This document shows, piece after piece, positions 7,301-39,349 of a DNA stretch of 39,349 nt; positions within the stretch are counted from its first letter, which is position 1, and every line of letters starts with the position of its first letter. Position numbers and translations under genes: made by a program. Below the pieces are notes generated by a model, which saw only the letters and a list, made by a program, of their open reading frames with translations, had not been told where the DNA came from and did no database searches. The stretch spans positions 11,174-50,522 of the forward strand of contig CAZAZY010000003.1 of NCBI GenBank assembly GCA_964489785.1, read 5' to 3'. This DNA is from an uncultured Candidatus Saccharibacteria bacterium. GTDB lineage: Bacteria > Patescibacteriota > Minisyncoccia > Phycocordibacterales > UBA1006.

Positions 7301-7770
7301 ATTTTTCTTCTGAGTATGGACGTAACAAATATCAGGAAATGAAAAACATTCCAGATGGTAAGCCGGTGGTATTTAACAAGACCGAATTAGATATTATTGC
7401 AACAGGATTAGAAGCTCTTCTTGTTGGTAATAAAGAAGAAGCGGTAGAGGTGAAGGCAATCAAAGAAAAAGCTGGAGAAACGGCAAAAGTGGGTGGCCCT
7501 ATTGTAGCTCCTATCATCGTACAGGAAAAACCAAAAGATTCTTCGTTAGAGCAGGTATTTACCAGTGCTGATCTATTAAAAACAGGAACAGAATTCGAAG
7601 ATACCAAAAATACCTACAAAATAATCAAAGTTGGGGGTTGGATTTTCAAAGATATGAAAGTTGAAGTTACAAGTAAGGAAACAGGTGAAGTTTCGAAAGA
7701 TAGTTTTAGTGTCAGCGATGCAGAAAATGCATTCAAACAAGGTTCTATTACCATTACAAAAATAATATAA
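4363..7770 (+). CDS. large hypothetical membrane protein (1135 aa) with internal tandem repeats
   Basis: Long uninterrupted ORF. The N-terminus is charged. Hydrophobic segments include VSPAVLSTGVGIAYSLSVGL, AAAWGTFGAAVAVSSAFAG and VGATALSGLVIGGAVQEAVAFF. A large Asp/Gly/Thr-rich region and two 87-aa repeats follow. I recognise no family. Confidence 0.75.
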   Translation: MNETLPGGVPRSKEEISEDAKNKALEKIKKGISVVNIEEIAEAEAKKAADAYMTESKSGAGFLKKLWKHTFFDEYYRQREINKVREEIKNTGNIYTRRSEKSNPDHVAAMSAITERFVSEYEGTLSEEEEKKVLDAKDTKTITAKTNIQDIVQKYAQGLISKEVFINEKNRVLNTLENDDTTKGPNMYADNLLEIAENARLAVEHGASIKELDLETNIILGKAKSSLKTEAHFNMVDRGVDWMKKSKVGRFVSPAVLSTGVGIAYSLSVGLGKKALGSQAAAWGTFGAAVAVSSAFAGMNESQRVALERAQHGLEMAEGGTFEKDSKRREQIDQYQYQMEKSSDLAAALRGLVFEKDAKGNETIKNIKEEEMSAIFAQLAAIEARNSLNAKKKIDLISYTDIGSVEKERTDLTILTAKAKVELRKKIEAGLKGGIPEGETFDTYLAKQAKTVEDSLMGGERGISAQDRAFSKYKAKRVAMKVGATALSGLVIGGAVQEAVAFFKDDTQGIIEGFLKNGGDENRIQTPLEHLRGWIMNDPSTMGLDNPVTTNIDGITFNTPEGTSIIKNADETFDVLKGDTVISDNIKLSFDADGNLDAGSLARLGETGVVANTTHTLVESTKQIIQTAAEYVETHEGTQHITRDAWYDNDTSIFDKNELRLDWGGGTGIDADGNYVLNMARMAEDGSFHDGFLVDAQEKMKDGALKMIFSLSQDTQHHVFEVPIDTNGNAVIDPNSEMGKLFFATENGQAVFKGRFAEVVQSFGEQNGVEHVKPLATLVGENNDTIESIIPVHVDHPVHNLELPLDTEPPYFIPVVPRTPLETLMKKKEKEAGKKSGGPIIAPIIVEDEKKKKGIDESIKVTQEEYRGMQDDLKMINKKIQSSEGIITVTENDFKSAYGKKRYRELSFIQEGIPVTFNKAEMQAIGDELEGMLSRATVIIPEEAIAVSPEKSPDAMKKDIEMLNKKIQSSEGIIMISEGDFSSEYGRNKYQEMKNIPDGKPVVFNKTELDIIATGLEALLVGNKEEAVEVKAIKEKAGETAKVGGPIVAPIIVQEKPKDSSLEQVFTSADLLKTGTEFEDTKNTYKIIKVGGWIFKDMKVEVTSKETGEVSKDSFSVSDAENAFKQGSITITKII
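6967..7488 (+). repeat. in-frame tandem duplication, 2 x 261 nt (87 aa), inside the 1135-aa ORF
   Basis: MQDDLKMINKKIQSSEGIITVTENDFKSAYGKKRYRE... (from 6967) versus MKKDIEMLNKKIQSSEGIIMISEGDFSSEYGRNKYQE... (from 7228). The pair is bracketed by the motif GGPI(I/V)APIIV at 6871-6900 and 7492-7521. Confidence 0.85.
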
Positions 7771-22629: not shown

Positions 22630-22704
22630 GGTCCCATCGTCTAACGGTTAGGACGAATCCTTCTCAAGGATTAAATCGGAGTTCGATTCTCCGTGGGATC
22701 ACCA
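22630..22704 (+). tRNA. tRNA-Glu (anticodon CUC) with encoded CCA
   Basis: GGTCCCA TC GTCT AACGGTTA GGAC G AATCC TTCTCAA GGATT AAAT CGGAG TTCGATT CTCCG TGGGATC A CCA. The stems pair, with one G-U in the acceptor. Confidence 0.88.
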
Positions 22705-22714
22705 TTTAGAGTTA

Positions 22715-22724
22715 GCACGAGAAG
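22715..22724 (+). repeat. 10-bp direct repeat GCACGAGAAG, left copy
   Basis: An identical 10-mer recurs at 23529-23538. Together the copies bracket the 263-aa ORF. Confidence 0.7.
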
Positions 22725-22734
22725 ATTATAATTT

Positions 22735-23526
22735 ATGGATAAATTAAAGAAAAAAGAAGAAAAAAAGATAGCTAAGAAACTAAATAAAAATCTTTCTTTA
22801 ATTTATTCTAAATGTGAAATTATTTTAAAAAAACATACGGAAGGTGAAAGTATTAATGAAAAAGATTATATTTGGTTTGTATTTTCTGCTGATATTTATT
22901 ATAGAATAAAAGATATATCTTTCTTGAATAAAAAACTTAAAGAAACAAAAAATAACTTTGACAGTTCTTTGTATGTGCTAAGTAGGTCAGTATTGGAAAC
23001 TTTTATTTACTTCAAATATCTCCTTTGTGAAGAAAATAAAATAATGTACCGACTGCGTGCTTTCGTCTGTTACTCAACTAGAAATAATGATATAAGTATT
23101 CTTAATTCCCTAAAGACGCTAGGAGGGAAAGGTAAATTTATTTTTAGCAGCGATCCTACTAGTATTCTTTCGGCTGAGATGCTTAATAAAAAAATAGTTG
23201 AATTAAATGATTCAATAACAGAATATAAGAATTTTTACAAAGAAGAATCTGCTTTTACTGATGAAATTGAGGTTTTCAAAAAAATTGAAAGAGTGGCGCA
23301 GAAATATGATGAAATTAAATGCATAAATTCAATCACAGATGGCTCAGAAAATACAAGCATGGAATGGATGTACAATTATGTTTATAGATTTCAGTGTATG
23401 TCTGCTCATCAAAGCCTTAGAGATAAAGAAAAGGTCTTTAGTTTATTTGATAAGAATAAAGAATCAGACAATATACATATCCTCGGACTATTATCTGACA
23501 TAACAGAACAAATTTTAATTTTATAG
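22735..23526 (+). CDS. hypothetical protein in AT-rich insert, possibly a HEPN-like/Abi-type fold
   Basis: 263 aa and very AT-rich. Motifs LSRSVLETFIYFKYL and YRFQCMSAHQS (R-x6-H, at the outer limit of the HEPN Rx4-6H pattern). No confident family match. Confidence 0.55.
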   Translation: MDKLKKKEEKKIAKKLNKNLSLIYSKCEIILKKHTEGESINEKDYIWFVFSADIYYRIKDISFLNKKLKETKNNFDSSLYVLSRSVLETFIYFKYLLCEENKIMYRLRAFVCYSTRNNDISILNSLKTLGGKGKFIFSSDPTSILSAEMLNKKIVELNDSITEYKNFYKEESAFTDEIEVFKKIERVAQKYDEIKCINSITDGSENTSMEWMYNYVYRFQCMSAHQSLRDKEKVFSLFDKNKESDNIHILGLLSDITEQILIL

Positions 23527-23528
23527 AC

Positions 23529-23538
23529 GCACGAGAAG
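23529..23538 (+). repeat. 10-bp direct repeat GCACGAGAAG, right copy
   Basis: Begins 3 nt after the stop codon of the 263-aa ORF. Confidence 0.7.
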
Positions 23539-23590
23539 GGTTAAGTTATTTTTAATAAAAGTATTTAAAATAACCTTACTGGTCAATGAG

Positions 23591-25141
23591 TCAATTAATT
23601 CTATCTGTTGAACTCTCACACTTAGAACACCATAGCCCATTTTTAATATCAGAAATTTTAGCCATCCAAGAGTGACCGTTCTTACATTGCCATTTCATTT
23701 TTACAGATGAATTGATATATTTTTTTGATAAGCAAATACCTCTCATTTTTTCTGCTAGAGCATTTGCTTGCTTAATATTTAATATTCTACCAATATTCCG
23801 ATCTTTGTAGCTACATTTAGGACACCAAGTTCCTCTATTTTTAATATGTCCAGGTTTTGCTTCCCATACATGACCTTCTTTACATTTCCATTTTAGTTTA
23901 GTATTTGAACCTAGATATTCTTTAGAGAGTAATTCTCCTTCATTGGTTAATGCTATATTTTGTAAATAAATTAATTGATTGTCAGGAACATAATAAGTCT
24001 GCTTAATTTCAAAATTTGTATTAATTTTTTTTGAATACGTTTTAGGTAAATTCTCTATAATATATTGTTTTAAATCTTCTGTTTGAATATAGTAAGGAAT
24101 ACCCATTAAAAAAATTCCTTTTGATTTGCAAACCTTCTTTTTAAGTTTATCATCATTGATTCGTTGCTTTAGCGAGTCATTGTCTCTGTGAAAAAAGCCA
24201 TTCTTTTTATAGTGTTGAACACCTTGATATTCAAAAGCTAATGAAAGTTCTTTAGAGTAACCATCTAACTCCATTTTATTTCCCCTAGAATTGACCAACC
24301 ATATGGGCTTAATTTTAATAAATTTTGTGTTAAATAAGCTTTCAAATAGTATTCTTGTGTATCTTTCGTTTAAACCAGCAGAACATTCTGGGCACCAAGA
24401 ATTTCTTCCTTTGATACTTTTTCCAGTTGTTTCCCATATATGCCCAAAGTTACATACGAATTTGAGCTTAGATGCATTATTTTTATATTCCTTAGACAAA
24501 CATTCTCCACCTCGCTCCTTGGCAATTTTGTGGAATTCTTTTATGTTTAGAATTTCTTTTCCAGCACACTTTTTACACCAAGCGTTATTATTTACAATAT
24601 TTATTGGTGAAACTTCCCAAACATGACCTTTTTCACATTTCCATTTTAGCTTAATATTGGAGTTAATATATTCCTTAGACAAACATTCTCCACCTCGCTC
24701 GTTGGCAATTTCTTTCATTTTTTCAATTGTATGTTTTTCTTTACCTGAGCAAATTAGACACCAGCTCTTACTATGCTTAATATGCATAGGTGTTGCTTCC
24801 CAAACATGACCTTTTTCACATTTCCATTTTAGCTTAGTATTGGAGTTAATATATTCCTTAGACAAACATTCTCCACCTCGCTCCTTGGCAATTTTGTGGA
24901 ATTGTTCAATAGATAATGGTTGGCTACCTGCACAAACTGGACACCAAGTTCCTGCTCTTTTGCTGGAACCTTTTATTGAATGAGGAATTGCTTCCCAAAC
25001 ATGACCTTTTTCACATTTCCATTTTAGCTTAGTATTGGAGTTAATATATTCCTTAGACAAACATTCTCCACCTCGCTCCTTGGCAATTTCTTTCATTTTT
25101 TCAATTGTTCCAATTTGTCTTCCCATTTCTAAATTATACAC
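23591..25141 (-). CDS. six-fold zinc-ribbon repeat protein with a central PD-(D/E)xK-like (Vsr/DUF559-like) nuclease core
   Basis: Four N-terminal and two C-terminal copies of A-x-ERGGECLSKEY-x5-KLKWKC-x2-GH-x-WE-x(14-19)-WCP-x-C (CHCC ligands). The core (aa ~258-350) has NERYTRILFE, MELDGY and LAFEYQGVQH. Confidence 0.75.
   Translation of the reverse strand: MYNLEMGRQIGTIEKMKEIAKERGGECLSKEYINSNTKLKWKCEKGHVWEAIPHSIKGSSKRAGTWCPVCAGSQPLSIEQFHKIAKERGGECLSKEYINSNTKLKWKCEKGHVWEATPMHIKHSKSWCLICSGKEKHTIEKMKEIANERGGECLSKEYINSNIKLKWKCEKGHVWEVSPINIVNNNAWCKKCAGKEILNIKEFHKIAKERGGECLSKEYKNNASKLKFVCNFGHIWETTGKSIKGRNSWCPECSAGLNERYTRILFESLFNTKFIKIKPIWLVNSRGNKMELDGYSKELSLAFEYQGVQHYKKNGFFHRDNDSLKQRINDDKLKKKVCKSKGIFLMGIPYYIQTEDLKQYIIENLPKTYSKKINTNFEIKQTYYVPDNQLIYLQNIALTNEGELLSKEYLGSNTKLKWKCKEGHVWEAKPGHIKNRGTWCPKCSYKDRNIGRILNIKQANALAEKMRGICLSKKYINSSVKMKWQCKNGHSWMAKISDIKNGLWCSKCESSTDRIN
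24377..25108 (-). repeat. four tandem near-identical coding repeats (periods 183, 183 and 195 nt)
   Basis: CCTTAGACAAACATTCTCCACCTCGCTC recurs at 24490, 24673, 24856 and 25051 on the + strand. Confidence 0.9.
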
Positions 25142-25314
25142 TTTCTCAATTGATTATTATATAGTTCTATTGTGGTTAACAAGGACTGTCCTTGCTAAAA
25201 CTTTAAAGGTATTTAAACACTCCTTGCATTAAAAAGTATCTTTTGATAAGATGTTTTTTATGTTACTTGGATTACATTATTACTCAAATAAAATCGGCCC
25301 AAATAGGATCTCGT

Positions 25315-25340
25315 AAACCGCCAAAAGCGGTTTTTTTAAT
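25315..25340 (+). terminator. hairpin plus T-run with no listed upstream + strand gene
   Basis: AAACCGC-CAAAA-GCGGTTT-TTTT just upstream of the helicase gene. Confidence 0.5.
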
Positions 25341-25348
25341 ACAATATT

Positions 25349-27172
25349 ATGGAAAAATATAAACAAGAACTTATAGAACAGGTAAAATCGCATATTGGTT
25401 TTATAAAACAAAAAATTCAACAAAGATTGAATGATGTTACAGTATTGGCAAATACCAGCTTATCTCAGATCAGTAAAATGGCTCCAGCGGATCAGGTGGT
25501 ATATATGGATCTGCGCGCAAATGCACAAAAACGGGTAGTTGAACTGGATCATCTGGATGGATCACCGTATTTTATAAAATGTAAAATCATAACGGAACAG
25601 GGACAAGAAGAAGAATATTTCTTTGCTAAACATGAATTTTCTGAACAATCAATTTATTCTTGGGTTGCTCCGGTGGCGGCGATACGTTTTGAATCTCCCG
25701 GTCAGACTTCGTACAAACTTCCCAGTGGTAAAACAAAAACAATAACTATTAAACAAAAAGAACAGTATATGATTGTCGATGGTACATTACTGTTCTTTTC
25801 TTTGGAATCTGAAAACAAACCCCGCGAATTGATCTACCAAGAATATTTTACAAAACAAAAATCAGAATTTGCTCTTCCTGAAATTGTGGCTCAGATGGAA
25901 AAGGCACAAGATCAGGTTATTCGCGCACATCACCGGGGTCCGATGATTATTTCAGGACCCGCAGGTTCCGGAAAAACAACGTTGGCTTTGCACCGCGTGG
26001 CGTATCTGACCCAGGCACCTGATACTGCTGAATTGTATCCTCCACGTTCTATTGTTATTTTTGTACAAGATACTGGAACCAAAGATTATTTCTCGACCTT
26101 GTTACCAGGATTGGGAATACGAGATGTAACCATAACCACATTTTCAGAATGGGCATTTTTGGTATTGAATATGGCGGGATATACCTATGTCGAAAGATAC
26201 GGAGATAACGACGAAGAAAAAGATCTGTATGAATATCAAAAATTAAAAGCACTTCGAGAACATACCTCTTCTGTTTGGAGTAGAAATTATTTTACCGTGT
26301 TGTTTTCTCATTACGAAGATTATTTTTTAGCACAGAACAGTAAGCTATTTGCACGACAGAAAAAAGAGAAAAAACTGGATAGATTTGATTTGACCATTCT
26401 TTTGAAATTATATTTTGAAAAGTATAAAAAATTTGAAACAAAACGAGAATATCAAGTATGGGTAAAAGATAAACTGACCAACAGAACTGAAAATACATTG
26501 ATATCATATTCTTTGGTGATTGTAGATGAATTCCAAAACTATCTTCCCGAACAGTTACGTATTTTCAAAAATTGTTTACAAGAAAAAACACAATCTTCTG
26601 TATATGTGGGGGATATAGCTCAGCAGGTGAAACTGGGAACTATAAAAAATTGGAAAGATATTGACGAAGATGTTTCTTTGGAACGAAATATCCGACTGAA
26701 CAAGGTCTACAGAAATACAAAAAATATATTGGATTACATTCAAACATTGGGATATAGCATTGAAATACCTGATGGATTAAAACAGGGTCCGGTGGTTACT
26801 GAAAAAATTATAGATACCATTCCCGAAGAAATAGCATATATAAAAGAATATCTACCAACATATGAAAAGGGAAGTATTGGTATTCTGGCAAAGAATGATG
26901 CGTATCTGGGCGATTTTAGAAAAGAATTTGCAGATACAAAAAATATTCATGTACTGACTATGGTTGAATCACAAGGGGTAGAATTTGATATTGTATTTAT
27001 TGTGGGAATACACAAAGAAAGTTTCGAGGTCGTGTATCACGATGGCGCCTTGGCAGAATATATCGAAGAAAGAAAAAGAATACAAAAAGATATTTTGTAT
27101 GTGGCATTAACTCGTGCTATCACGGAACTTCATATTTTGGGTAGAGAAAAATTAAAACATTTTGTGAATTAA
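25349..27172 (+). CDS. SF1 UvrD-like helicase, HelD/helicase IV-like
   Basis: Walker A ISGPAGSGKTTLALHRVAYL, motif II VIVDEFQNY, VYVGDIAQQ, ESQGVEFDIVFIV and motif VI LYVALTRAITELHILG. N-terminal YSWVAPVAAIRF resembles the HelD WRAP motif. Confidence 0.75.
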   Translation: MEKYKQELIEQVKSHIGFIKQKIQQRLNDVTVLANTSLSQISKMAPADQVVYMDLRANAQKRVVELDHLDGSPYFIKCKIITEQGQEEEYFFAKHEFSEQSIYSWVAPVAAIRFESPGQTSYKLPSGKTKTITIKQKEQYMIVDGTLLFFSLESENKPRELIYQEYFTKQKSEFALPEIVAQMEKAQDQVIRAHHRGPMIISGPAGSGKTTLALHRVAYLTQAPDTAELYPPRSIVIFVQDTGTKDYFSTLLPGLGIRDVTITTFSEWAFLVLNMAGYTYVERYGDNDEEKDLYEYQKLKALREHTSSVWSRNYFTVLFSHYEDYFLAQNSKLFARQKKEKKLDRFDLTILLKLYFEKYKKFETKREYQVWVKDKLTNRTENTLISYSLVIVDEFQNYLPEQLRIFKNCLQEKTQSSVYVGDIAQQVKLGTIKNWKDIDEDVSLERNIRLNKVYRNTKNILDYIQTLGYSIEIPDGLKQGPVVTEKIIDTIPEEIAYIKEYLPTYEKGSIGILAKNDAYLGDFRKEFADTKNIHVLTMVESQGVEFDIVFIVGIHKESFEVVYHDGALAEYIEERKRIQKDILYVALTRAITELHILGREKLKHFVN

Positions 27173-32207: not shown

Positions 32208-33290
32208 ATGCATTCGATCGACATGTTTTTACTGAATAAATTTCAATCTATTTCTGATTGGTTTCAGGAATGGTTTGGGATTAATAATTTTACCCTTGCA
32301 AGGATTTGCTTGGGTATTATTCCAATTTTAAGTGCGCTATACAAGGTGATATTTATGCTAAGGGAAAACAAGTTTAGTTTCCTTTTAATTATCACCTTTA
32401 TATTCATCTGTTTTATGCTTGGGATAGCTTATTTTATGTTTAACATGGCTGAACAAAGGTGTAATACACAATCTCAATTTGGGAATGCCTTAGCTGTTAG
32501 CTTATTTTCTGCAAGAATGGCGTATCTCTTTTTACTGATTATTCATTTGCCATTGATATTTTCCCAGGATGATCCGTTAAAAGGAGAAGTGTATAATTTC
32601 TGGTTTACTATGGGAAATATTATTTCAGCGATAGAAATTCTTTTTTGGTTGCTTATGATTTACTTTGCCTCCTGTACACCGAAACCATATAAAACCAGTA
32701 AAGTGAAGAAATGGTTAAAATCATTCGTTGAATCTGTACAGGCAACAGTTGCTGGAGTATTCAGTCCTGCTCCTGAATTAGCAACGGTACGTATTGGAAA
32801 AAATCGCAGAGTTGCACAAAGACCGATCCTGGCAACAGGGTCGGTTATTTTTTTTGAATTACTTTACTTTTTTATACTATTATTGTATTATGTGTATGAA
32901 CCAACATCTGTTCCCGTGGAAGAAAATACATTGAAAACATCGATCGAAGTACAGGAAATGACCTGTAAAGAATTTTTGAACACATTTTTGCCAAATAAAA
33001 CATCTGTGAAATACACTCAGGCAAGCATGTATTTCCATGAGCGTATTGCATCTGTTTATTTTGATCATTGGCCAACTGAGCCACTGAAAAGTGTTATTTT
33101 GCTATTGCAAAAAACACCACCAGAAGAAATGGTTGGATATCGTGGCGTTGGAATTGCCCGGTTTAATAATCTTATGGATGCATTTAAGCGTGCTGGGATT
33201 AATTTTGAAGACATTCCAGAATACAAAAAAATGCTGGATGCGGTCTTGAAAACTCCAAACCCTGTTATTAAAAAAGAGAAACGAAGATAA
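32208..33290 (+). CDS. hypothetical membrane protein with soluble C-terminal helix-hairpin-helix-like domain
   Basis: About 6 hydrophobic helices. The C-terminal GYRGVGIARFNNLMDAFKRAGI looks HhH-like. Confidence 0.55.
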   Translation: MHSIDMFLLNKFQSISDWFQEWFGINNFTLARICLGIIPILSALYKVIFMLRENKFSFLLIITFIFICFMLGIAYFMFNMAEQRCNTQSQFGNALAVSLFSARMAYLFLLIIHLPLIFSQDDPLKGEVYNFWFTMGNIISAIEILFWLLMIYFASCTPKPYKTSKVKKWLKSFVESVQATVAGVFSPAPELATVRIGKNRRVAQRPILATGSVIFFELLYFFILLLYYVYEPTSVPVEENTLKTSIEVQEMTCKEFLNTFLPNKTSVKYTQASMYFHERIASVYFDHWPTEPLKSVILLLQKTPPEEMVGYRGVGIARFNNLMDAFKRAGINFEDIPEYKKMLDAVLKTPNPVIKKEKRR

Positions 33291-33310
33291 TATTGTGCTT
33301 TTGCTCTAAC

Positions 33311-33343
33311 GACCAACCCCGGCAACTGGGTTGGTCATTTTTA
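33311..33343 (+). terminator. rho-independent terminator
   Basis: GACCAACCC-CGGCAACT-GGGTTGGTC-ATTTTT. Confidence 0.8.
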
Positions 33344-33400
33344 TTTATCCATTTTTTTATGGTATACTTTTTATATATTTACAAATAATACATATTCGTT

Positions 33401-34213
33401 ATGTCAGAAGAAAAGAATACAAAAACATCGTTACCTTCGCCAGTTGCATTAGTAAAAGAATCTTGGGCTACGTATACAGAACACATTTTGCGTTTTGTAA
33501 CATTAATGGCAATTCCATTTGTGACAGGAATGTTGGTGTTAGGAATATTTTTGGCCTTGGGTTGGATAACTGGTCCATCATTGATCATGGGAATTATCTT
33601 TTCAATCGTGTCAGTTTTGTTGATGATATTGATCCAGGTATGGGGACAGGTTGCTGTTATCATGGGTGTTATTCATGTACAAAAGAAACAAGATATCAAA
33701 ATTATCTATAAAGATGCATGGGGTGTTTTGGGTGTATTTTTTGGAACATCGTTGGTGTCTGCATTGGTAATCATGGGTGGAACATTTCTAGCCATCTTAC
33801 CTGGGATTTTCTTTGGAGGATTGGTTGCATTTTCAAGCTTTATTGTGTTAGAAGAAAAGAAAACTTTTTTTGAAGCATTGATGCAGAGCGCACGATATGT
33901 ATCTGGTCGTTGGTGGGCAGTGTTCGGACGTCTTTTGTTTTTGATCGCTATGGCAATGGTTGCATCTGATGGAACCGCATGGTTGTTTGGATTGATTTCT
34001 CCTATGGTAGGTGATTTGGTTTCAACCGGAATTTCATTTGCATTGGTACCGTTCTTTATTTTGTATGCATACAATATGTACACACATTTGAAACACACCT
34101 ATCATCCATCAGAAGAAAGTCGTTCTATCTCACGTCCATGGTTTGTTGGGTTGGCAACATTTGGTTTGTTGGCACCGATTGCTATGATTGTTATTGTACT
34201 ATTGCTAAAATAA
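33401..34213 (+). CDS. hypothetical polytopic membrane protein
   Basis: 270 aa with about 6 TM helices. Confidence 0.65.
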   Translation: MSEEKNTKTSLPSPVALVKESWATYTEHILRFVTLMAIPFVTGMLVLGIFLALGWITGPSLIMGIIFSIVSVLLMILIQVWGQVAVIMGVIHVQKKQDIKIIYKDAWGVLGVFFGTSLVSALVIMGGTFLAILPGIFFGGLVAFSSFIVLEEKKTFFEALMQSARYVSGRWWAVFGRLLFLIAMAMVASDGTAWLFGLISPMVGDLVSTGISFALVPFFILYAYNMYTHLKHTYHPSEESRSISRPWFVGLATFGLLAPIAMIVIVLLLK

Positions 34214-34230
34214 TATATACTAAAAGAGAT

Positions 34231-34262
34231 AAACAAAACCGGGACATGTCCCGGTTTTGTTT
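34231..34262. terminator. bidirectional terminator
   Basis: ACAAAACCGGGA-CATG-TCCCGGTTTTGT between convergent genes. Confidence 0.85.
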
Positions 34263-35340
34263 ATTCTTCGCCGTCTGGTTTGTCTAATAACAACGGTTCG
34301 ATATTGATTGCTTCGCCCGTGATACGAAGAACATCTTTGTCTACTTTTTTTAATTCTTTTGCAGATGCATTCCAATGGTTTACCACAGTACCCAATGCAT
34401 TACCCATTTTTGCATGATAGGTTTCGTAGGTTTGCAAATGTTTACCCAGTTCGCCAACACGTTTAATAATATGTACTGCCTGTTCTTCGATTTGTAATGC
34501 TTTTAATCCTTGTAATACTGTTTGTAAATAAGCCAAAAACGAAGTAGGAGAAACAATAATGACTTTGTATTTTGATGCTGCACGTTGAATAAGACTTTCT
34601 TCTTCGTCACGTAATGCACCAACGGTATTGGTTAGTAAATCATAATAGATTGCTTCGTGGGGAATAAACATAAATGCAAATTCCATAGTGCCTTTTGCTG
34701 GTTGGATATATTTTGCGGTTTCTGTAATTCGGTTTTTTAAATCGTTTACAAATATTTTTTCCAAACGTTCTTTTTCTTTCAAGTCGCTGGTTTCACTGAT
34801 ACGGTTATAATTTTCCAAAGAGAATTTTGAATCGATAGGAATAATTTTATCTTTTACCCGGACAATTGCATCAGGAATCAAATCATTTCCATTGTCATCT
34901 TTTCCCATTGCGTACTGCATTTCAAAACTGCCTGGCGGTAATGTGTTTTTCAATAATGTTTCCAAATAGTATTCACCCAATATGCCTCGTTGTTTTGGAT
35001 TTTTGAGAATGTCTTGCAAACTTTGTAATTGGTCCGTAAATGAAACAACCTGTTTGTTGGTTTCATCTAATTGGGTCAACCGTTCCGTTACATCACGAAT
35101 AATTTTTATTGATTCGCTGGATTGATGTTTTAATGATTCATACAGACCCTTGCTGGATTCGTGTAATTTAATATTTACCGATTCTTTGAGATCGTCCTGA
35201 CGGCGGATCAATTCATTGAGTTGTTGCATCATTAGTTGCGATGCGGTAGTATCTTCTGGTGGTTTTGCATTGCGTGTTACAATAAGATATACAACAGCGA
35301 TAATTACCAGACCTAATAAAATGATTGTTATAATTTCCAT
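34261..35340 (-). CDS. rmuC: DNA recombination protein RmuC
   Basis: N-terminal TM, a coiled coil, then the RmuC core QRGILGEYYLETLL...PDAIVRV.DKIIPIDSKF. Start set at MEIITI (35340). Confidence 0.85.
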   Translation of the reverse strand: MEIITIILLGLVIIAVVYLIVTRNAKPPEDTTASQLMMQQLNELIRRQDDLKESVNIKLHESSKGLYESLKHQSSESIKIIRDVTERLTQLDETNKQVVSFTDQLQSLQDILKNPKQRGILGEYYLETLLKNTLPPGSFEMQYAMGKDDNGNDLIPDAIVRVKDKIIPIDSKFSLENYNRISETSDLKEKERLEKIFVNDLKNRITETAKYIQPAKGTMEFAFMFIPHEAIYYDLLTNTVGALRDEEESLIQRAASKYKVIIVSPTSFLAYLQTVLQGLKALQIEEQAVHIIKRVGELGKHLQTYETYHAKMGNALGTVVNHWNASAKELKKVDKDVLRITGEAINIEPLLLDKPDGEE

Positions 35341-35391
35341 ATAGGTATAGTATATCAGGTAATAGCTATTCACGAAAATAAGACACAACAC

Positions 35392-36069
35392 ATGATTACA
35401 TTTCATATTATCACCATATTTCCCGAGATGTTTGATTCATATATGAATGAATCGATTTTGGGGCGCGCGATAAAAAATAAAAAAATCGCAATCAAATGCT
35501 ATCCATTGCGTTCTTTTGTGCGTGGTAAATATCGAAAAGTCTGGCCAGACGGAAATATTTCTGCCCAGGTGGATGAAAAACCATACGGAGGTGGTCCAGG
35601 TATGATATTGCGTGCAGAACCTATTTTAGAAGCGGTAAAAAAAATCAAGACAAAGAAAAAAGATGCAAAAGTATTTATCACCGCTGCGGGTGGTGAAATG
35701 TTTACGAATACCTATGCGCAAAAGATGGTTGCGAAAAAAGGTTTGGAAGATATTATTATTATTTGTGGACGCTACGAAGGAATCGACAGTCGTGTAAAAA
35801 AAGCATTACGGGCCACAGAAATTTCTATTGGAGATTTTATACTGACAGGTGGGGAATTGGCCGGAATGGTAATGATAGATGTTATGGCACGACAGATTCC
35901 TGGCGTATTAGGTAAACAAGAATCAATCGAAGAAAATCGTGTTTCCAGTCATGAAATGTATACACGACCCGAAATCTTACCTTGGCAGGGAAAAAACTAC
36001 AAAGTCCCAAAAGTCTTATTATCTGGTGATCATAAAAAAATAGAAAACTGGAGAAAGGGGGAGAAATAG
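35392..36069 (+). CDS. trmD: tRNA (guanine37-N1)-methyltransferase TrmD
   Basis: FHIITIFPEMFDSYMNESILGRA, ICGRYEGIDSRV and IGDFILTGGELAGMVMIDV. Confidence 0.93.
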   Translation: MITFHIITIFPEMFDSYMNESILGRAIKNKKIAIKCYPLRSFVRGKYRKVWPDGNISAQVDEKPYGGGPGMILRAEPILEAVKKIKTKKKDAKVFITAAGGEMFTNTYAQKMVAKKGLEDIIIICGRYEGIDSRVKKALRATEISIGDFILTGGELAGMVMIDVMARQIPGVLGKQESIEENRVSSHEMYTRPEILPWQGKNYKVPKVLLSGDHKKIENWRKGEK

Positions 36070-36083
36070 ATACATAAAAAATT

Positions 36084-36118
36084 ACCCGAACCGTATAACG
36101 GTTCGGGCTTTTTTTTTG
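36084..36118 (+). terminator. rho-independent terminator
   Basis: CCCGAACCG-TATAA-CGGTTCGGG-CTTTTTTTTT. Confidence 0.85.
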
Positions 36119-36133
36119 CAGTTAGATGATAGG

Positions 36134-36463
36134 CTAGTTTTTACAAAGACCCCTGTCATCAAATGAGCTTTTTTCGTGCATTGCCTGTAAAATAAAAGAA
36201 ATCACATCTGATATCTTTTCTGTTTTTCTGCGTACCTCGGGGGTTTCAGTGTTTGGCAGATTACAGGTATTGATATCTTGCATGATCGCTGTTTTAAATG
36301 CTGAATCGATAATCTCATCTCGGATTAATCCATTCAAACACAAAAGAGCATGTTCTTTGCAATATATTGGCAAGCTCATTCCCTGGATTGATGGAATAAT
36401 AAAATGTCCGTGATCAGACTCATTTTCGCAGACGGTAAAGCAAGGGCGTTCCATTGTGTTCAT
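36134..36463 (-). CDS. hypothetical protein (109 aa, Cys-rich)
   Basis: ORF only; no family recognised. Confidence 0.45.
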   Translation of the reverse strand: MNTMERPCFTVCENESDHGHFIIPSIQGMSLPIYCKEHALLCLNGLIRDEIIDSAFKTAIMQDINTCNLPNTETPEVRRKTEKISDVISFILQAMHEKSSFDDRGLCKN

Positions 36464-36574
36464 GTGCAGTTTCTGTTTGGTTCTTTTATATTTAACACAA
36501 TTTCTTTTTTTTTGTCAAGGTTGTGTGTTTGAATGCATTATTGTAGTGTGTATTTGAACCAAAACACCTGTACA

Positions 36575-37087
36575 ATGGAAGATTTACTAAAAAGGATTCA
36601 GTTGATTAACCAGCAAACCGTTGGATGGACTGTTCGCTCTGAAGAATCAGGACATTTTGCCATGAGACGTGGTGGAGGGATAATAAACATCATGACAGTT
36701 GTGAATAAATTTTATGGTGATCCCGTACATAATCGCTTCTCTCTGAATATTAATAATGATAAAGAAAATAAAGATCCTGATCCCAGTATCGGACACGCGG
36801 ATATTTCTCTTTTGTGTGAAATTATTGCATCGGATCCCCATTCTTTTTATTGGGAGAAAAAACAGTACGAAGGAAGAGTTTGGTATTTTCTTGTTCTCAT
36901 GGAGTCCCTTGTTCCAGGGTTGAAGGAGAAAAAAACTATATTTTACTTCTTGGAAAAACATCTTAGGTCCGATTCCAAACAAGAATCACTTCAACTATTG
37001 GAAGACCTTTGTTCTGATCCAGCGAAAGAGAAGGTAAAACAACATTGGAAAGATGTTCCTGATTCTGCATATTGCCTGAAAGAATAA
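36575..37087 (+). CDS. hypothetical protein (170 aa)
   Basis: ORF followed by a terminator. Start set at MEDLLKR. No family recognised. Confidence 0.5.
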   Translation: MEDLLKRIQLINQQTVGWTVRSEESGHFAMRRGGGIINIMTVVNKFYGDPVHNRFSLNINNDKENKDPDPSIGHADISLLCEIIASDPHSFYWEKKQYEGRVWYFLVLMESLVPGLKEKKTIFYFLEKHLRSDSKQESLQLLEDLCSDPAKEKVKQHWKDVPDSAYCLKE

Positions 37088-37108
37088 ATGAATCAGGTTT
37101 ACCAAATA

Positions 37109-37144
37109 CCCCGTCATGCGCATAGCGTATGGCGGGTTTTTTTA
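37109..37144 (+). terminator. rho-independent terminator
   Basis: CCCGTCATGCG-CATAG-CGTATGGCGGG (with G-U pairs), followed by TTTTTTT. Confidence 0.75.
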
Positions 37145-37183
37145 TATAAAAAAGGTGGGCCATCGAGTAAAACTCGATGGCCC
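37145..37183 (-). terminator. minus-strand rho-independent terminator
   Basis: GGGCCATCGAG-TTTTA-CTCGATGGCCC followed by ACC-TTTTTTAT on the minus strand. Confidence 0.75.
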
Positions 37184-37188
37184 AATAT

Positions 37189-37482
37189 TCAAGGTGGTCG
37201 AAGCGACAACCGGATCAGATCCAGAATTCTTCCCGTCCAACCCGTGGTGCAAACAGCCCTGGGTTCTTGGTTGGGAAAAGTGAGAAAGGTCTCGTATTCT
37301 TGAAAAGCAATGAGAGGTTCAACTAATCCAGTCAAAATGCAACAATCGTTGCCTTGAGGGTATGTTTGTTGAGCCTCATTAACAGAAAGGACAATAATTT
37401 CAATTTCAGGATGATCACGATGAATCATCCTGGGCAGGTCAGTTGCTAATGCGACTGACAGCGGAATGATTGCGTAGATCAT
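37189..37482 (-). CDS. hypothetical protein, start uncertain
   Basis: The track ORF reaches 37620, only 3 nt from the divergent helicase ATG. An internal Met (37482 or 37428) is more plausible. The terminator directly downstream supports a real minus-strand transcript. Confidence 0.35.
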   Translation of the reverse strand: MIYAIIPLSVALATDLPRMIHRDHPEIEIIVLSVNEAQQTYPQGNDCCILTGLVEPLIAFQEYETFLTFPNQEPRAVCTTGWTGRILDLIRLSLRPP

Positions 37483-37623
37483 GTGCTGAATGTTTTTATC
37501 TATACTAGCATATCTTTTCAAAAAAGCAAGACTGAATAAGTAGGTATTGACAAATAATATATAATGTGACACATTGTATATCAAGCGGTGAACAAATGAT
37601 CTGCTCCTTGAAAAATTCATACA

Positions 37624-39349
37624 ATGGAAAATCGATTTACGTTAATCGTAGCGAATCTACTATCGTACGTTCCTGTTAATGTATTTCGTAAAGGACAGGA
37701 AACGTTCTATACAAAAATACGTCAGGCTATCATAGACGGATTCCGTACTATGTACATTGAAGGACCAACGGGAATGGGTAAAGCATTCCTTCAGGCTACG
37801 CTTGCCGATGCTATTATCAATGGATCACAGGATATCAAGATTTTGATTCTTGTACCAAAGATTGATCTGCTTTCGCAGATGAGGGATGAATTTACAAAAT
37901 TTGCGGTACGTCTTTTCGTTGGGCTTCGAGGTGGAGGTTGGAAGAGTAATGGTCAACATGTGACTGTTATGACCTACCAAAGCTTTGCCAGATTGAATAA
38001 TGACGAGTTGAAACAATATTCGGTCATATTTCTTGACGAAGCTCACTTGGCACTGGGTGTGGTCACCCGGGCAAAGATAGATGAACAACAGCATGCTATT
38101 ATTATTGGCTTTACTGCCACATCTGAATATTCTGAAGAGAAAAACCTCAAAGAATGGCTAGGACTTGAAGTTCACAAAATTTCAGTTCTCGAAGCCGTTA
38201 ATGTAGGAATGCTGTCAGGTATTCAGGTTATGACCGGTAAGGTAAAAATCAAGATCGCTGGAAGATTACAGGGAGAGGCAACGTCTGAATACACAGAACG
38301 AATAAGTAGCGATATAATCCGCCAAGGTGGAAACATTGCTGCGACACGTTTGTACAAGAAATTGTTTCAACCAAAGGGTCTGCGATTCGTCATGTTTACC
38401 TTAACGGTGGAACAAGGACGCGATCTAGTAGAAGAGTTGGTTCGCCAAGGTGTCACTGCACGACTGATCGAAGGTGCCATGTCAAGGGATGATCGGAAAG
38501 ATCTTTTCGATGACTTCAAGGACAACAAATTTGAAGTTCTTGTTGGAGTCGATGTACCCAAAACTGGTTTCGATGATAAGGGTGTTTGTGGAGTCATATT
38601 TGCTTATCCTGTTGGATCGCTTGTCGGTTTGACTCAGGGGGCAGGTAGGGCAACACGCTTGTGGGAACTGATGCCAGACAAAATTGCATATGTTGTGCAG
38701 TTGATGTTCGAAGGCAGGGATCAGGTGTTCTATTCACAGGTTCTAGAGGGTAATTCTATGGTGTTACCCAAAGTATTAGGAGAAAGAGAAATGAAAGGAA
38801 TGCGCAAGCGCCTTATCTCTACTTCTGATATTGAACAGGATCTGTGTGATGATGTGATTGAATCAGTCCACGTCACCGAAGAAGAGGTGATAAGGGTTGT
38901 GAAAGAATATGCTGATAAGTATGTTCGAGAACAAGCTCAGGAAGGGTGGTATACAGCAAGCCAGATTAGTGAAATGGATGATGTTCAAGGTAACTATGAT
39001 AGGGTCAAAAAACTTGCCGAAACATATCGCAAAGACTACTCAATATGGTTTAGGATGTATTTGTCGGGACCAAGTTGGACTGAACACTACGCACCTGATC
39101 TGGTAGCCATCCTCAAAAAGCTCTGCGCTCGTAAAGAGCAAGCTCCCGAAGGGTGGTATACAGCAAGCCAGATTAGCGACTTTAGTGATGTGCAAGGTGG
39201 AGATATTAAAATCAAAAAGCTTGCCGAAGTCCATCGTCAAGATCATCCTCAGTGGTTTAAGGTATACTTGGTTGGTATTAGTACAAAACCAGGTGAACAC
39301 TACGCTCCTGAGCTAGTAGCTGTTCTGAAAGAGCAATGCGCTCGTAAAG
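37624..39349 (+). CDS. SF2 DEAH-box helicase (ResIII/Helicase_C-like) with C-terminal tandem repeats; 3' partial, runs off the window
   Basis: My hand translation is open for 575 codons with no stop. Motif I EGPTGMGKA, Ia ILVPKIDLLSQM, II FLDEAH, III GFTAT, VI QGAGRATR. It is absent from the supplied ORF track. Confidence 0.85.
   Translation, partial: MENRFTLIVANLLSYVPVNVFRKGQETFYTKIRQAIIDGFRTMYIEGPTGMGKAFLQATLADAIINGSQDIKILILVPKIDLLSQMRDEFTKFAVRLFVGLRGGGWKSNGQHVTVMTYQSFARLNNDELKQYSVIFLDEAHLALGVVTRAKIDEQQHAIIIGFTATSEYSEEKNLKEWLGLEVHKISVLEAVNVGMLSGIQVMTGKVKIKIAGRLQGEATSEYTERISSDIIRQGGNIAATRLYKKLFQPKGLRFVMFTLTVEQGRDLVEELVRQGVTARLIEGAMSRDDRKDLFDDFKDNKFEVLVGVDVPKTGFDDKGVCGVIFAYPVGSLVGLTQGAGRATRLWELMPDKIAYVVQLMFEGRDQVFYSQVLEGNSMVLPKVLGEREMKGMRKRLISTSDIEQDLCDDVIESVHVTEEEVIRVVKEYADKYVREQAQEGWYTASQISEMDDVQGNYDRVKKLAETYRKDYSIWFRMYLSGPSWTEHYAPDLVAILKKLCARKEQAPEGWYTASQISDFSDVQGGDIKIKKLAEVHRQDHPQWFKVYLVGISTKPGEHYAPELVAVLKEQCARK
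38941..39349 (+). repeat. tandem 207-nt (69-aa) coding repeats at the helicase C-terminus
   Basis: GAAGGGTGGTATACAGCAAGCCAGATTAG occurs at 38941 and 39148. The peptides are EGWYTASQISEMDDVQG...HYAPDLVAILKKLCARK and EGWYTASQISDFSDVQG...HYAPELVAVLKEQCARK. The window ends at a repeat boundary. Confidence 0.9.

What the first reader, a model, noticed from the sequence alone, without database searches (positions are those of the whole stretch)
37189..39349. GC-rich foreign segment carrying a DEAH helicase ORF that the ORF track omits
From about 37190 to the window end, local GC jumps to roughly 45-55% in the 60-nt stretches I counted. The rest of the window looks mid-30s %. The boundary coincides with two back-to-back terminators at 37109-37183.

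The segment contains an open frame from ATG 37624 to the last base, 575 codons with no stop. It encodes a complete SF2 helicase core (GPTGMGKA, DEAH, TAT, QGAGRATR). The supplied ORF track does not list it, presumably because it has no stop codon inside the window.

A compositional break plus a helicase suggests the edge of an integrated element, such as a prophage, a plasmid-derived island or a defence island, or alternatively a chimeric contig. The rest of any such system would lie beyond the window.
Basis: seen in the sequence. Interest (0 to 1): 0.65.

Follow-up and report, generated by a model that had tools for sequence, protein, structure and literature searches.

The report
Patescibacterial helicase with swappable repeat tail
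The window ends inside a real, intact gene for a DNA helicase found only in ultra-small Patescibacteria (CPR), whose tail is an array of undescribed 69-residue repeats; it is a resident chromosomal gene lying just before the RNA polymerase genes, not the edge of a foreign island or an assembly error.

Summary
The ORF is real: ATG 37624 to the window end, 575 codons, all SF2 motifs present. The ORF list omits it only because it has no stop inside the window.

The GC rise is real but smaller than stated: 42.3% against 36.5%. It sits mostly at third codon positions. The window's strongest compositional outlier is elsewhere, at 22.6-25.6 kb.

The two "terminators" are an ordinary convergent pair.

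Two independent assemblies carry the same junction and continue helicase, rpoB, rpoC, dnaG. So this is neither a chimera nor the edge of a large island. Core synonymous divergence resembles that of flanking trmD, and dN/dS is 0.11-0.20, so the gene is resident and functional.

A more distant relative has trmD, then two small ORFs, then rpoB, with no helicase. The gene therefore occupies a variable slot.

The protein is a RadD/XPB/UvsW-like SF2 core plus tandem 69-aa winged-helix-like repeats that match no Pfam model. The repeat occurs in 455 representative proteins, and the few that carry a source name are patescibacterial or unclassified. The repeat array diverges far faster than the core and is replaced by other repeat types in relatives.

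Distant family members lie in mobile-element-like contexts.

Verdict: a new variant of a known kind, of modest interest.

The parts
37110..37146 (+). Intrinsic terminator (12-bp stem plus T-run) ending the upstream 184-aa hypothetical ORF (36533-37087).
37146..37184 (-). Intrinsic terminator (13-bp stem, 8 GC pairs, plus T-run) for the minus-strand small ORF. Together with the previous part it forms a convergent terminator pair.
   Evidence: DNA homology with L003 resumes at 37142.
37189..37428 (-). Small divergent ORF. The 79-aa part (MIHRDHPEI...LRLSLRPP) is conserved in L001 and L003. The mechanical ORF extends to 37620, but that extension carries stops in L001. Coding status is uncertain.
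   Evidence: Codon-position differences against L001 are 16/14/24. There is no Pfam, PHROG or PADLOC hit. It is not linked to the helicase in L002 or L005.
37429..37623 (.). Divergent intergenic and promoter region between the small ORF and the helicase. It contains TTGACA (37547-52) and TATAAT (37560-65) hexamers, but their spacing is not canonical.
   Evidence: It is 98.5% identical to L003 and 83.6% to L001. Homology with L002 starts exactly at the ATG, 37624.
37624..38937 (+). Helicase core, aa 1-438. It comprises RecA-like lobe 1 (ResIII, aa 21-167; motif I at 37762-37785, DEAH at 38035-38046, TAT at 38113-38121), lobe 2 (Helicase_C, aa 249-345; motif VI at 38635-38658) and a conserved C-terminal extension ending ...ESVHVTEEEV...
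   Evidence: invariant columns; AF2 pLDDT 87.4; RadD, XPB and UvsW folds. dN/dS is 0.11-0.20.
38938..39144 (+). Repeat unit 1, aa 439-507. It has a helix, helix, beta-hairpin, helix topology (winged-helix-like).
   Evidence: (pLDDT 92.6).
39145..39349 (+). Repeat unit 2, aa 508-575. The window ends here, inside the array. Full-length relatives carry 3-6 units and then a stop.
   Evidence: In L003 the repeat DNA is up to 88-89% identical at a 207-nt period.

Best explanation
The segment holds a resident chromosomal gene, truncated by the window end. It encodes a Patescibacteria-specific SF2 ATPase of the dsDNA-translocase/helicase type, with a RadD/XPB/UvsW-like two-lobe core. Its C-terminus is a tandem array of roughly 69-residue winged-helix-like repeats.

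Shown:
- The gene is intact and under purifying selection.
- In this lineage it lies in a variable slot between trmD and rpoB.
- Its core has been co-inherited with the flanking genes.
- Its repeat array is mosaic. It is saturated at synonymous sites while the core is not. In relatives it is replaced by two other repeat families.

Inferred mechanism: the ATPase core translocates on or unwinds DNA, while the multivalent repeat array tethers or targets it to a nucleic acid or a partner protein. Exchange of the array by recombination re-targets the enzyme.

The modest GC3 excess is a stable property of the gene. It could be a legacy of an old acquisition from a mobile element or a higher-GC relative, or a by-product of frequent recombination.

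The window most likely ends here because the 207-nt repeats break short-read assembly. What lies beyond is most likely the remaining 2-4 repeat units and then rpoB-rpoC.
For: Gene and fold:
- ORF and motifs are confirmed, with ResIII and Helicase_C domains.
- The AF2 model has pLDDT 87.4.
- Best structural matches are RadD (1.5e-16), TFIIH XPB/Ssl2, archaeal XPB, UvsW, SauUSI and Hef.
- The best PDB sequence hit is T4 UvsW at 4.8e-10. phrog_16 'DNA helicase' scores 1.8e-45.

Distribution:
- About 33 close homologues, 640-951 aa when complete. Every one that carries an organism name (four) is from Patescibacteria.
- Only 5 loci appear among GTDB species representatives; the three titles that name a taxon are Paceibacterota or Nomurabacteria.

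Synteny:
- L001 and L003 read UPF0259, RmuC, trmD, small ORFs, helicase, rpoB, rpoC, dnaG.
- L014 has trmD, two small ORFs and rpoB, with no helicase.

Evolutionary rates:
- Core dS is 0.18-0.35, against 0.34-0.42 for trmD. Core dN/dS is 0.11-0.20.
- Repeat dS is 1.1-2.9.
- Nucleotide identity is 90-94% for the core and 66-69% for the repeats.

Repeat array:
- Repeat families are swapped on the same core. Relatives carry type A, INT_rpt (PF14882, 4.9e-39) or a third 78-aa type, and P0011 is a chimera.
- The repeat-unit model has pLDDT 92.6 with H-H-hairpin-H topology.
- The (non-significant) Foldseek list for it includes many winged-helix DNA binders, alongside ribosomal proteins and others.
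- The repeat profile hits 455 representative proteins, with up to 14 copies each. Some hits are SNF2-methyltransferase giants.

Composition: GC3 is elevated in all three syntenic genomes.
Against: - No biochemical function can be read from sequence. The fold matches are generic for SF2.
- The repeat unit has no significant structural match (best E 0.26). The tails are not notably basic (pI 6.1-7.8 for type A). DNA binding by the repeats is therefore only a guess.
- The sequence beyond the window is not seen. rpoB downstream is inferred from relatives whose flanks are 83-94% identical.
- L002 carries a 92.7% nt-identical core in a quite different, higher-GC context. Movement of the gene among close relatives is therefore not excluded.
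- No close relative with an empty site was found. L014 is distant (TrmD 58%).
Confidence: 0.62

Rival explanations
1. Edge of an integrated element. On this reading the helicase is the first gene of a prophage, ICE or defence island that continues beyond the window.
For: - The gene is compositionally atypical and the family is patchy.
- Distant members sit in mobile-element-like contexts.
- L011 carries a serine recombinase, an N6_N4 methyltransferase, an S24 peptidase and an HNH protein.
- L071 carries two tyrosine integrases, a D12 methyltransferase, RadC and TraG/TrwB.
Against: - In both syntenic relatives the gene after the helicase is rpoB.
- Core dS matches that of the flanking genes.
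- No tRNA or att-like repeat lies at the boundary. Only a 15-nt AT-rich terminator-tail similarity was found.
- PADLOC shows no specific system.
- No close relative appears in IMG/VR or in phage genomes; identities there are 30% or less over the helicase core (most 21-27%), with only two short fragments at 34-35%.
Confidence: 0.1
2. Transcription-associated DNA translocase. On this reading the helicase acts with RNA polymerase at promoters or stalled complexes, analogous to XPB/Ssl2, RapA or Mfd. The repeat array would anchor it.
For: - The helicase is adjacent to the rpoB-rpoC-dnaG-rpoD cluster in two different arrangements. It is upstream of rpoB in the window, L001 and L003, and downstream of rpoD in L005/L010 and L008.
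- A paralogous core (38% identity) is fused to a complete RpoD-like sigma factor (regions 1.2-4) next to family member P0031.
- XPB/Ssl2 is among the best structural matches.
Against: - Six or more other contexts show no RNAP genes.
- Sigma fusions are rare; only 3 sequences were found.
- The structural match to XPB is generic SF2, and there is no RED motif.
- Adjacency may simply reflect a variable slot next to a conserved cluster.
Confidence: 0.12
3. Stand-alone defence or counter-defence helicase. On this reading the exchangeable repeat array is a sensor or targeting module in a conflict with mobile elements.
For: - The core is conserved while the array is hypervariable and exchanged like a cassette.
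- The same repeat occurs on SNF2-methyltransferase giants typical of mobile elements.
- PADLOC gives weak hits to type IV REase, PbeA, DpdF and BrxH helicase domains.
Against: - There is no nuclease or effector domain, and no conserved partner gene across contexts.
- PADLOC hits are partial and generic.
- Repeat dN/dS is 0.09-0.32, so there is no sign of positive selection by this crude measure.
Confidence: 0.1
4. Chimeric contig or assembly artefact at about 37.15 kb.
For: A compositional step coincides with an intergenic AT-rich palindrome.
Against: The same junction is present in an independent NCBI MAG, as a single HSP spanning 33308-39257. The right-hand side from 37142 is present in a JGI contig.
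Confidence: 0.02

Closest known systems
E. coli RadD (SF2 DNA repair helicase; PDB 6jde, 7r7j, 8h5y)
   Same: Best structural match for the two RecA-like lobes (Foldseek E 1.5e-16, about 380 aligned columns, 22% identity). Both are stand-alone bacterial SF2 ATPases.
   Different: The sequence match covers lobe 2 only (E 4.2e-5). No RadD-like region is detected after the core, which is followed instead by tandem 69-aa repeats; from memory, RadD has a zinc-binding domain and an SSB-interacting C-terminus there, and their absence was not tested.
XPB/Ssl2/Rad25 (TFIIH translocase and archaeal XPB)
   Same: High-ranking fold matches (E about 2e-15, TM about 0.5) and sequence hits to lobe 1. These are dsDNA translocases rather than classical unwinding helicases.
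   Different: There is no RED tripeptide. Helicase motif I lies at aa 47-54, so there is little room for an N-terminal damage-recognition domain. No Bax1-like partner is present. The C-terminus is different.
Phage T4 UvsW (RNA-DNA/DNA-DNA branch-migration helicase) and PHROG phrog_16
   Same: Best PDB sequence hit, 4.8e-10 over both lobes. Phage-genome hits are dominated by UvsW-type genes. phrog_16 scores 1.8e-45.
   Different: Identity is only 22-27%. The match starts at UvsW residue 120, so its N-terminal domain has no counterpart. No close relative was found in viral collections.
Helicases with INT_rpt (PF14882) repeats
   Same: Family members P0015 and P0016 carry five INT_rpt units on the same core. 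The architecture, core plus tandem small repeats, is the same.
   Different: The window's repeats do not match PF14882 or any other Pfam model. They form a distinct 69-aa family.

Membership tests
Superfamily 2 helicase/translocase (ResIII + Helicase_C) | Walker A (motif I), DExH (motif II), motif III (TAT/SAT) and the motif VI arginine finger, arranged in two RecA-like lobes. | tested here: met
   GPTGMGKA, DEAH, TAT and QGAGRATR are present. Pfam gives ResIII 4.5e-21 and Helicase_C 1.7e-10, both above the gathering scores. The two lobes are modelled at pLDDT 87.
T4 UvsW family | A UvsW N-terminal DNA-binding domain preceding the helicase lobes, and close sequence similarity. | tested here: not met
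   The alignment covers UvsW residues 120-441 only. Query motif I is at aa 47-54, which leaves no room for the N-domain. Identity is about 27%.
RadD family | The RadD-specific region that follows the helicase core (from memory, a zinc-binding domain and an SSB-interacting C-terminus). | tested here: inconclusive
   The sequence match to RadD is confined to Helicase_C (aa 252-347), and the C-terminus consists of tandem repeats instead. No dedicated test for a Cys/His cluster was run.
XPB/Rad25 | RED motif, thumb insertion and an N-terminal damage-recognition domain. | tested here: not met
   No 'RED' string occurs in the protein. The N-terminus before motif I is only 46 aa. The thumb was not specifically tested.
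Type III or type I restriction helicase subunit (Res/HsdR) | A nuclease domain in the same protein and adjacent Mod or HsdM/S genes. | tested here: not met
   No nuclease domain is found. In the window, L001 and L003 the neighbours are trmD, small ORFs and rpoB, with no methyltransferase.
Known anti-phage defence systems (PADLOC-DB) | A full-length match to a system component, plus the system's partner genes. | tested here: not met
   The best hits are 4.7e-8 to 1e-2 and partial, covering the helicase domain only. Neighbours give no hits.
Integrated mobile element (prophage, ICE or genomic island) at this locus | An integrase or recombinase, flanking att repeats or a tRNA, and element genes adjacent. 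| tested here: not met
   Syntenic relatives show rpoB-rpoC-dnaG after the helicase. No tRNA lies nearby. Only a 15-nt AT-rich terminator-tail repeat is found. The window itself cannot be extended.
INT_rpt (PF14882) repeat proteins | A match to the PF14882 profile. | tested here: not met
   The window's two repeat units give no Pfam hit even at E<=10. P0015 scores 4.9e-39.
Winged-helix DNA-binding domains (for the repeat unit) | A helix-turn-helix plus beta-hairpin wing, with a significant structural match to known winged-helix proteins. | tested here: inconclusive
   The topology is H-H-hairpin-H at pLDDT 92.6. The Foldseek list includes many winged-helix proteins (Xis, MerR-type, SarS, TubR, ArsR, MarR, Zalpha), but the best E is 0.26 and TM is 0.5 or less.

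The most novel reading that the evidence does not exclude
The gene belongs to a Patescibacteria-specific family of XPB/RadD-like DNA translocases that work with RNA polymerase, in promoter opening or in remodelling stalled complexes.

Their targeting would be supplied either by an exchangeable array of winged-helix-like repeats or, in a paralogue, by direct fusion to a complete RpoD-like sigma factor. That would amount to a bacterial analogue of TFIIH-type ATP-driven promoter DNA translocation.

The evidence does not exclude this reading. The gene is adjacent to rpoB-rpoC-dnaG-rpoD in two arrangements, and a sigma-helicase fusion exists. But most contexts lack RNAP genes, and the fusion is rare.
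Probability: 0.1. Interest if true: 0.8.

Novelty: new variant of a known kind. Interest (0 to 1): 0.35.

Why it matters
As first described, the finding is largely ordinary. It is a truncated helicase ORF with a modest GC3 excess. It is not an island edge and not a chimera.

What is worth keeping is the architecture. A conserved SF2 translocase core, so far seen only in Patescibacteria, carries an exchangeable tandem-repeat tail. The repeat unit (about 69 aa, confidently modelled, with no Pfam or PDB match) defines an unannotated domain family. It is present in hundreds of representative proteins, including SNF2-methyltransferase giants; the few with a source name are patescibacterial or unclassified.

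The tail shows cassette-like replacement: its synonymous sites are saturated while the core is 90-94% identical. This suggests re-targeting by recombination. It would be a compact example of modular specificity evolution in organisms that cannot be cultured.

The repeats also explain a practical nuisance: contigs tend to break inside this gene.

Tried and rejected
- **TRF on 37000-39349.** It found no tandem repeat. The window's two units are too diverged at the DNA level. The repeats were found at protein level, and by the repeat finder in L001 and L003.
- **Metagenome scan with TrmD.** This was meant to recover the window's own contig or a close empty site. It returned only relatives at 59% identity or less over most of TrmD (one 31-residue fragment reached 77%). 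One of them (L014) gave a distant empty-site-like arrangement.
- **A two-gene module of small divergent ORF plus helicase.** Rejected. The small ORF is conserved only in the syntenic trio, not in L002 or L005, and its coding signal is weak.
- **Flanking att-like repeats.** Only AT-rich terminator tails were found.
- **Close relatives in phage genomes or IMG/VR.** None were found.
- **Literature on INT_rpt/PF14882.** Nothing useful.
- **PDB sequence search with the repeat profile.** Nothing significant.
- **Search for more sigma-helicase fusions.** The results were swamped by RpoD homologues, with only two further fusions.
- **Rfam.** Only the two tRNAs.
Full report
**1. The observation**

The open frame is as described. 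An ATG at 37624 opens a frame that runs to 39348, 575 codons with no stop. It contains GPTGMGKA, DEAH, TAT and QGAGRATR. Pfam places ResIII on aa 21-167 (4.5e-21) and Helicase_C on aa 249-345 (1.7e-10). The ORF lister states that ORFs running off an end are not listed, which accounts for the omission.

The composition claim is only partly right.
- The segment 37189-39349 has GC 0.423, against 0.365 for the rest of the window.
- That is the highest of all 2161-nt windows. The maximum elsewhere is 0.411.
- 60-nt stretches average 0.42, not 45-55%.
- The excess lies mainly at third codon positions. GC3 is 0.377, against 0.21-0.31 in the other long ORFs.
- By tetranucleotide distance the segment is an outlier (z=2.9, rank 6 of 138).
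- The strongest outlier of the window is the low-GC stretch at 22.1-25.6 kb, with z=4.2.

The two "back-to-back terminators" are one on each strand. The + strand terminator (37110-37136) ends the 184-aa ORF. The - strand terminator (37184-37156) ends a minus-strand ORF whose stop is at 37189. This is an ordinary convergent pair.

**2. What surrounds it**

The window is a patescibacterial (CPR) chromosome segment. It carries NusB, SMC, RNase R, an F-type ATP synthase operon, two tRNAs, RmuC and TrmD.

The helicase has about 33 close homologues, 640-951 aa when complete. All come from metagenomes or MAGs, and the four that carry an organism name are Pacebacteria, Nomurabacteria or Magasanikbacteria. 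Among 185,579 species representatives only five loci were found; the three whose titles name a taxon are Paceibacterota or Nomurabacteria.

Two independent assemblies share the window's gene order:
- L001, an NCBI MAG (GCA_021734445.1).
- L003, a JGI contig.
- Both read UPF0259, RmuC, trmD, small ORFs, a small minus-strand ORF, the helicase, then rpoB, rpoC and dnaG, followed by rpoD in L001.

A single blastn alignment joins window 33308-39257 to L001. L003 is collinear for 33000-36117 and again from 37142 to the end. The interval 36118-37141 is replaced in L003 by a different gene.

This excludes a chimeric join. It also makes rpoB the most likely gene beyond the window.

A more distant relative, L014 (TrmD 58% identical), has trmD, two unrelated small ORFs, and then rpoB-rpoC-dnaG, with no helicase. 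The trmD-rpoB interval is therefore a variable slot, and the helicase is one of its occupants.

**3. Resident or foreign?**

Between the window, L001 and L003, the helicase core has nucleotide identity of 90-94%, like RmuC, TrmD and rpoB (91-94%). Core dS is 0.18-0.35 and trmD dS is 0.34-0.42. Core dN/dS is 0.11-0.20.

The core has therefore been inherited together with its flanks since these lineages split, and it is under purifying selection.

The elevated GC3 is shared by all three genomes. The gene is the top tetranucleotide outlier in L001 (z=3.65) and L003 (z=3.05). It is thus a stable property of the gene, not the mark of a recent arrival.

L002 carries a core that is 92.7% identical at the nucleotide level. 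Its context is entirely different and has higher GC (0.415). Homology with the window begins exactly at the ATG. Relocation among close relatives is therefore possible.

More distant members (42-45% identity) lie in mobile-element-like settings:
- L011 carries a serine recombinase, an N6_N4 methyltransferase, an S24 peptidase and an HNH protein.
- L071 carries two tyrosine integrases, a D12 methyltransferase, RadC and TraG/TrwB.

Other members sit among housekeeping genes. No close relative exists in phage genomes or IMG/VR. Identities there are 30% or less over the helicase core (most 21-27%), apart from two short fragments at 34-35%, and the phage-genome hits are mostly UvsW-type.

PADLOC gives only partial helicase-domain hits.

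**4. The protein**

An AlphaFold model built on a 31-sequence alignment is confident (pLDDT 87.4). Its two RecA-like lobes match RadD best (E 1.5e-16). TFIIH XPB/Ssl2, archaeal XPB, UvsW, SauUSI and Hef follow. The best PDB sequence hit is T4 UvsW at 4.8e-10, and phrog_16 "DNA helicase" scores 1.8e-45. This places the core in the dsDNA-translocase/branch-migration part of SF2 and no more precisely than that.

After a conserved extension ending at about aa 438, the protein becomes a tandem array of 69-aa units. Their consensus is PEGWxTAxQIxxxxDVQGxxxKIKxLAExYRxxHPxWFKxYxxGxxFxEHYAPDLVAILKxxCARKxxA. The window holds two units before it ends, and complete relatives hold three to six.

A single unit models at pLDDT 92.6 as helix, helix, beta-hairpin, helix. 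It has no significant match in the PDB by fold (best E 0.26) or by sequence. The weak fold hits include many winged-helix DNA binders, mixed with ribosomal proteins and others. It matches no Pfam model.

A profile of the unit finds 455 representative proteins at E<=1e-3, with up to 14 copies per protein. Some carry the repeats N-terminal to SNF2 plus methyltransferase modules. Of ten looked up, the only informative organism names were "Patescibacteria group bacterium" and "bacterium".

**5. A mosaic tail**

On the same core, relatives carry other repeat families.
- P0015 and P0016 carry INT_rpt (PF14882, 4.9e-39).
- P0012 and P0013 carry a third unit of about 78 aa.
- P0011 carries one INT_rpt-like unit (by eye; Pfam reports no PF14882 hit for P0011) followed by three type-A units.

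Within the syntenic trio, the first two units are only 66-69% identical at the nucleotide level. Their dS is 1.1-2.9, which is saturated, while their dN/dS stays at 0.09-0.32.

The tail is therefore replaced or shuffled by recombination. It is not diversified by point mutation under positive selection.

In L003 the repeat DNA reaches 88-89% identity at a 207-nt period. This plausibly explains why the window ends inside the array, and why another contig (L070) ends 160 nt after its helicase. This link is an inference.

**6. Mechanism**

- Shown: a functional, conserved SF2 ATPase with a multivalent, exchangeable C-terminal array.
- Inferred: the core translocates on or remodels DNA, the array tethers or targets it, and exchange of arrays changes the target.

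The physiological role could be repair or recombination (RadD/UvsW-like), a conflict function inherited from mobile elements, or a transcription-linked role. Sequence alone does not decide between these.

The transcription idea rests on three observations:
- The helicase is adjacent to rpoB-rpoC-dnaG-rpoD in two arrangements.
- A paralogous core is fused to a complete RpoD-like sigma factor.
- XPB is among the best fold matches.

It is weakened by the many contexts that lack RNAP genes and by the rarity of the fusion, of which only three sequences were found.

**7. Verdict**

The ORF and the terminators are real, and the GC step is real but modest.

The interpretation as the edge of an integrated element, or as a chimera, is not supported at this locus. 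A mobile-element ancestry is plausible at the family level.

The gene is a new variant of a known kind: an SF2 helicase with an undescribed repeat domain. Interest is modest.

Noticed in passing
window 22630-27172: This is the strongest compositional outlier of the window (GC 0.27-0.32, tetranucleotide z=4.2). It starts right after tRNA-Glu(ctc) at 22630-22704. It holds a DUF5677 protein (22735-23526, +), a DUF4379 treble-clef zinc-finger/CapR-homology protein (23591-25141, -) and a UvrD-like SF1 helicase (25349-27172, +). This tRNA-flanked low-GC islet looks more like an acquired, possibly defence-related, island than the segment in the finding.
   Followed up: partly
L011 5153-7846 (GCA_030433255.1, contig JAUIMI010000002.1): An 897-aa protein fuses a complete RpoD-like sigma factor (regions 1.2, 2, 3 and 4; aa 18-273) to an SF2 helicase core that is 38% identical to the window's core. 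It lies immediately upstream of family member P0031, in a recombinase- and methyltransferase-rich region. Only two further such fusions were found (P0194, P0195).
   Followed up: partly
proteins P0045, P0051, P0054: The same 69-aa repeat occurs in 10-14 copies N-terminal to an SNF2-related ATPase, which in P0051 and P0054 is followed by a methyltransferase domain. These proteins are 1485-1831 aa long. The repeat is thus a mobile module that is repeatedly combined with SF2 translocases, and no Pfam model covers it.
   Followed up: partly
window 36118-37141 versus L003 6624-7301: The two hypothetical ORFs between trmD and the helicase unit (109 aa on the - strand, 184 aa on the + strand; no Pfam hits) are replaced in L003 by an unrelated 225-aa minus-strand ORF. 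In L001 the 184-aa protein is only 58% identical, while the flanks are about 97% identical at protein level. This is a small hypervariable patch.
   Followed up: partly
window 4363-7770: A 1135-aa ORF on the + strand, between SMC and a small ORF, has no Pfam match at E<=1e-5.
   Followed up: no
L069 6001-7787: In this relative the helicase core (447 aa) and an INT_rpt repeat protein (137 aa) are separate adjacent ORFs. This could be a split gene, a frameshift or an assembly error in the repeats.
   Followed up: no
L001 9500-9514 and 12192-12206; window 37137-37155: A near-identical 15-nt AT-rich palindrome (TTTT(G/T)TATATAAAAA) lies in the terminator tails on both sides of the small-ORF-plus-helicase unit in L001. 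It is probably just similar bidirectional terminators, but it brackets the compositionally atypical unit exactly.
   Followed up: no
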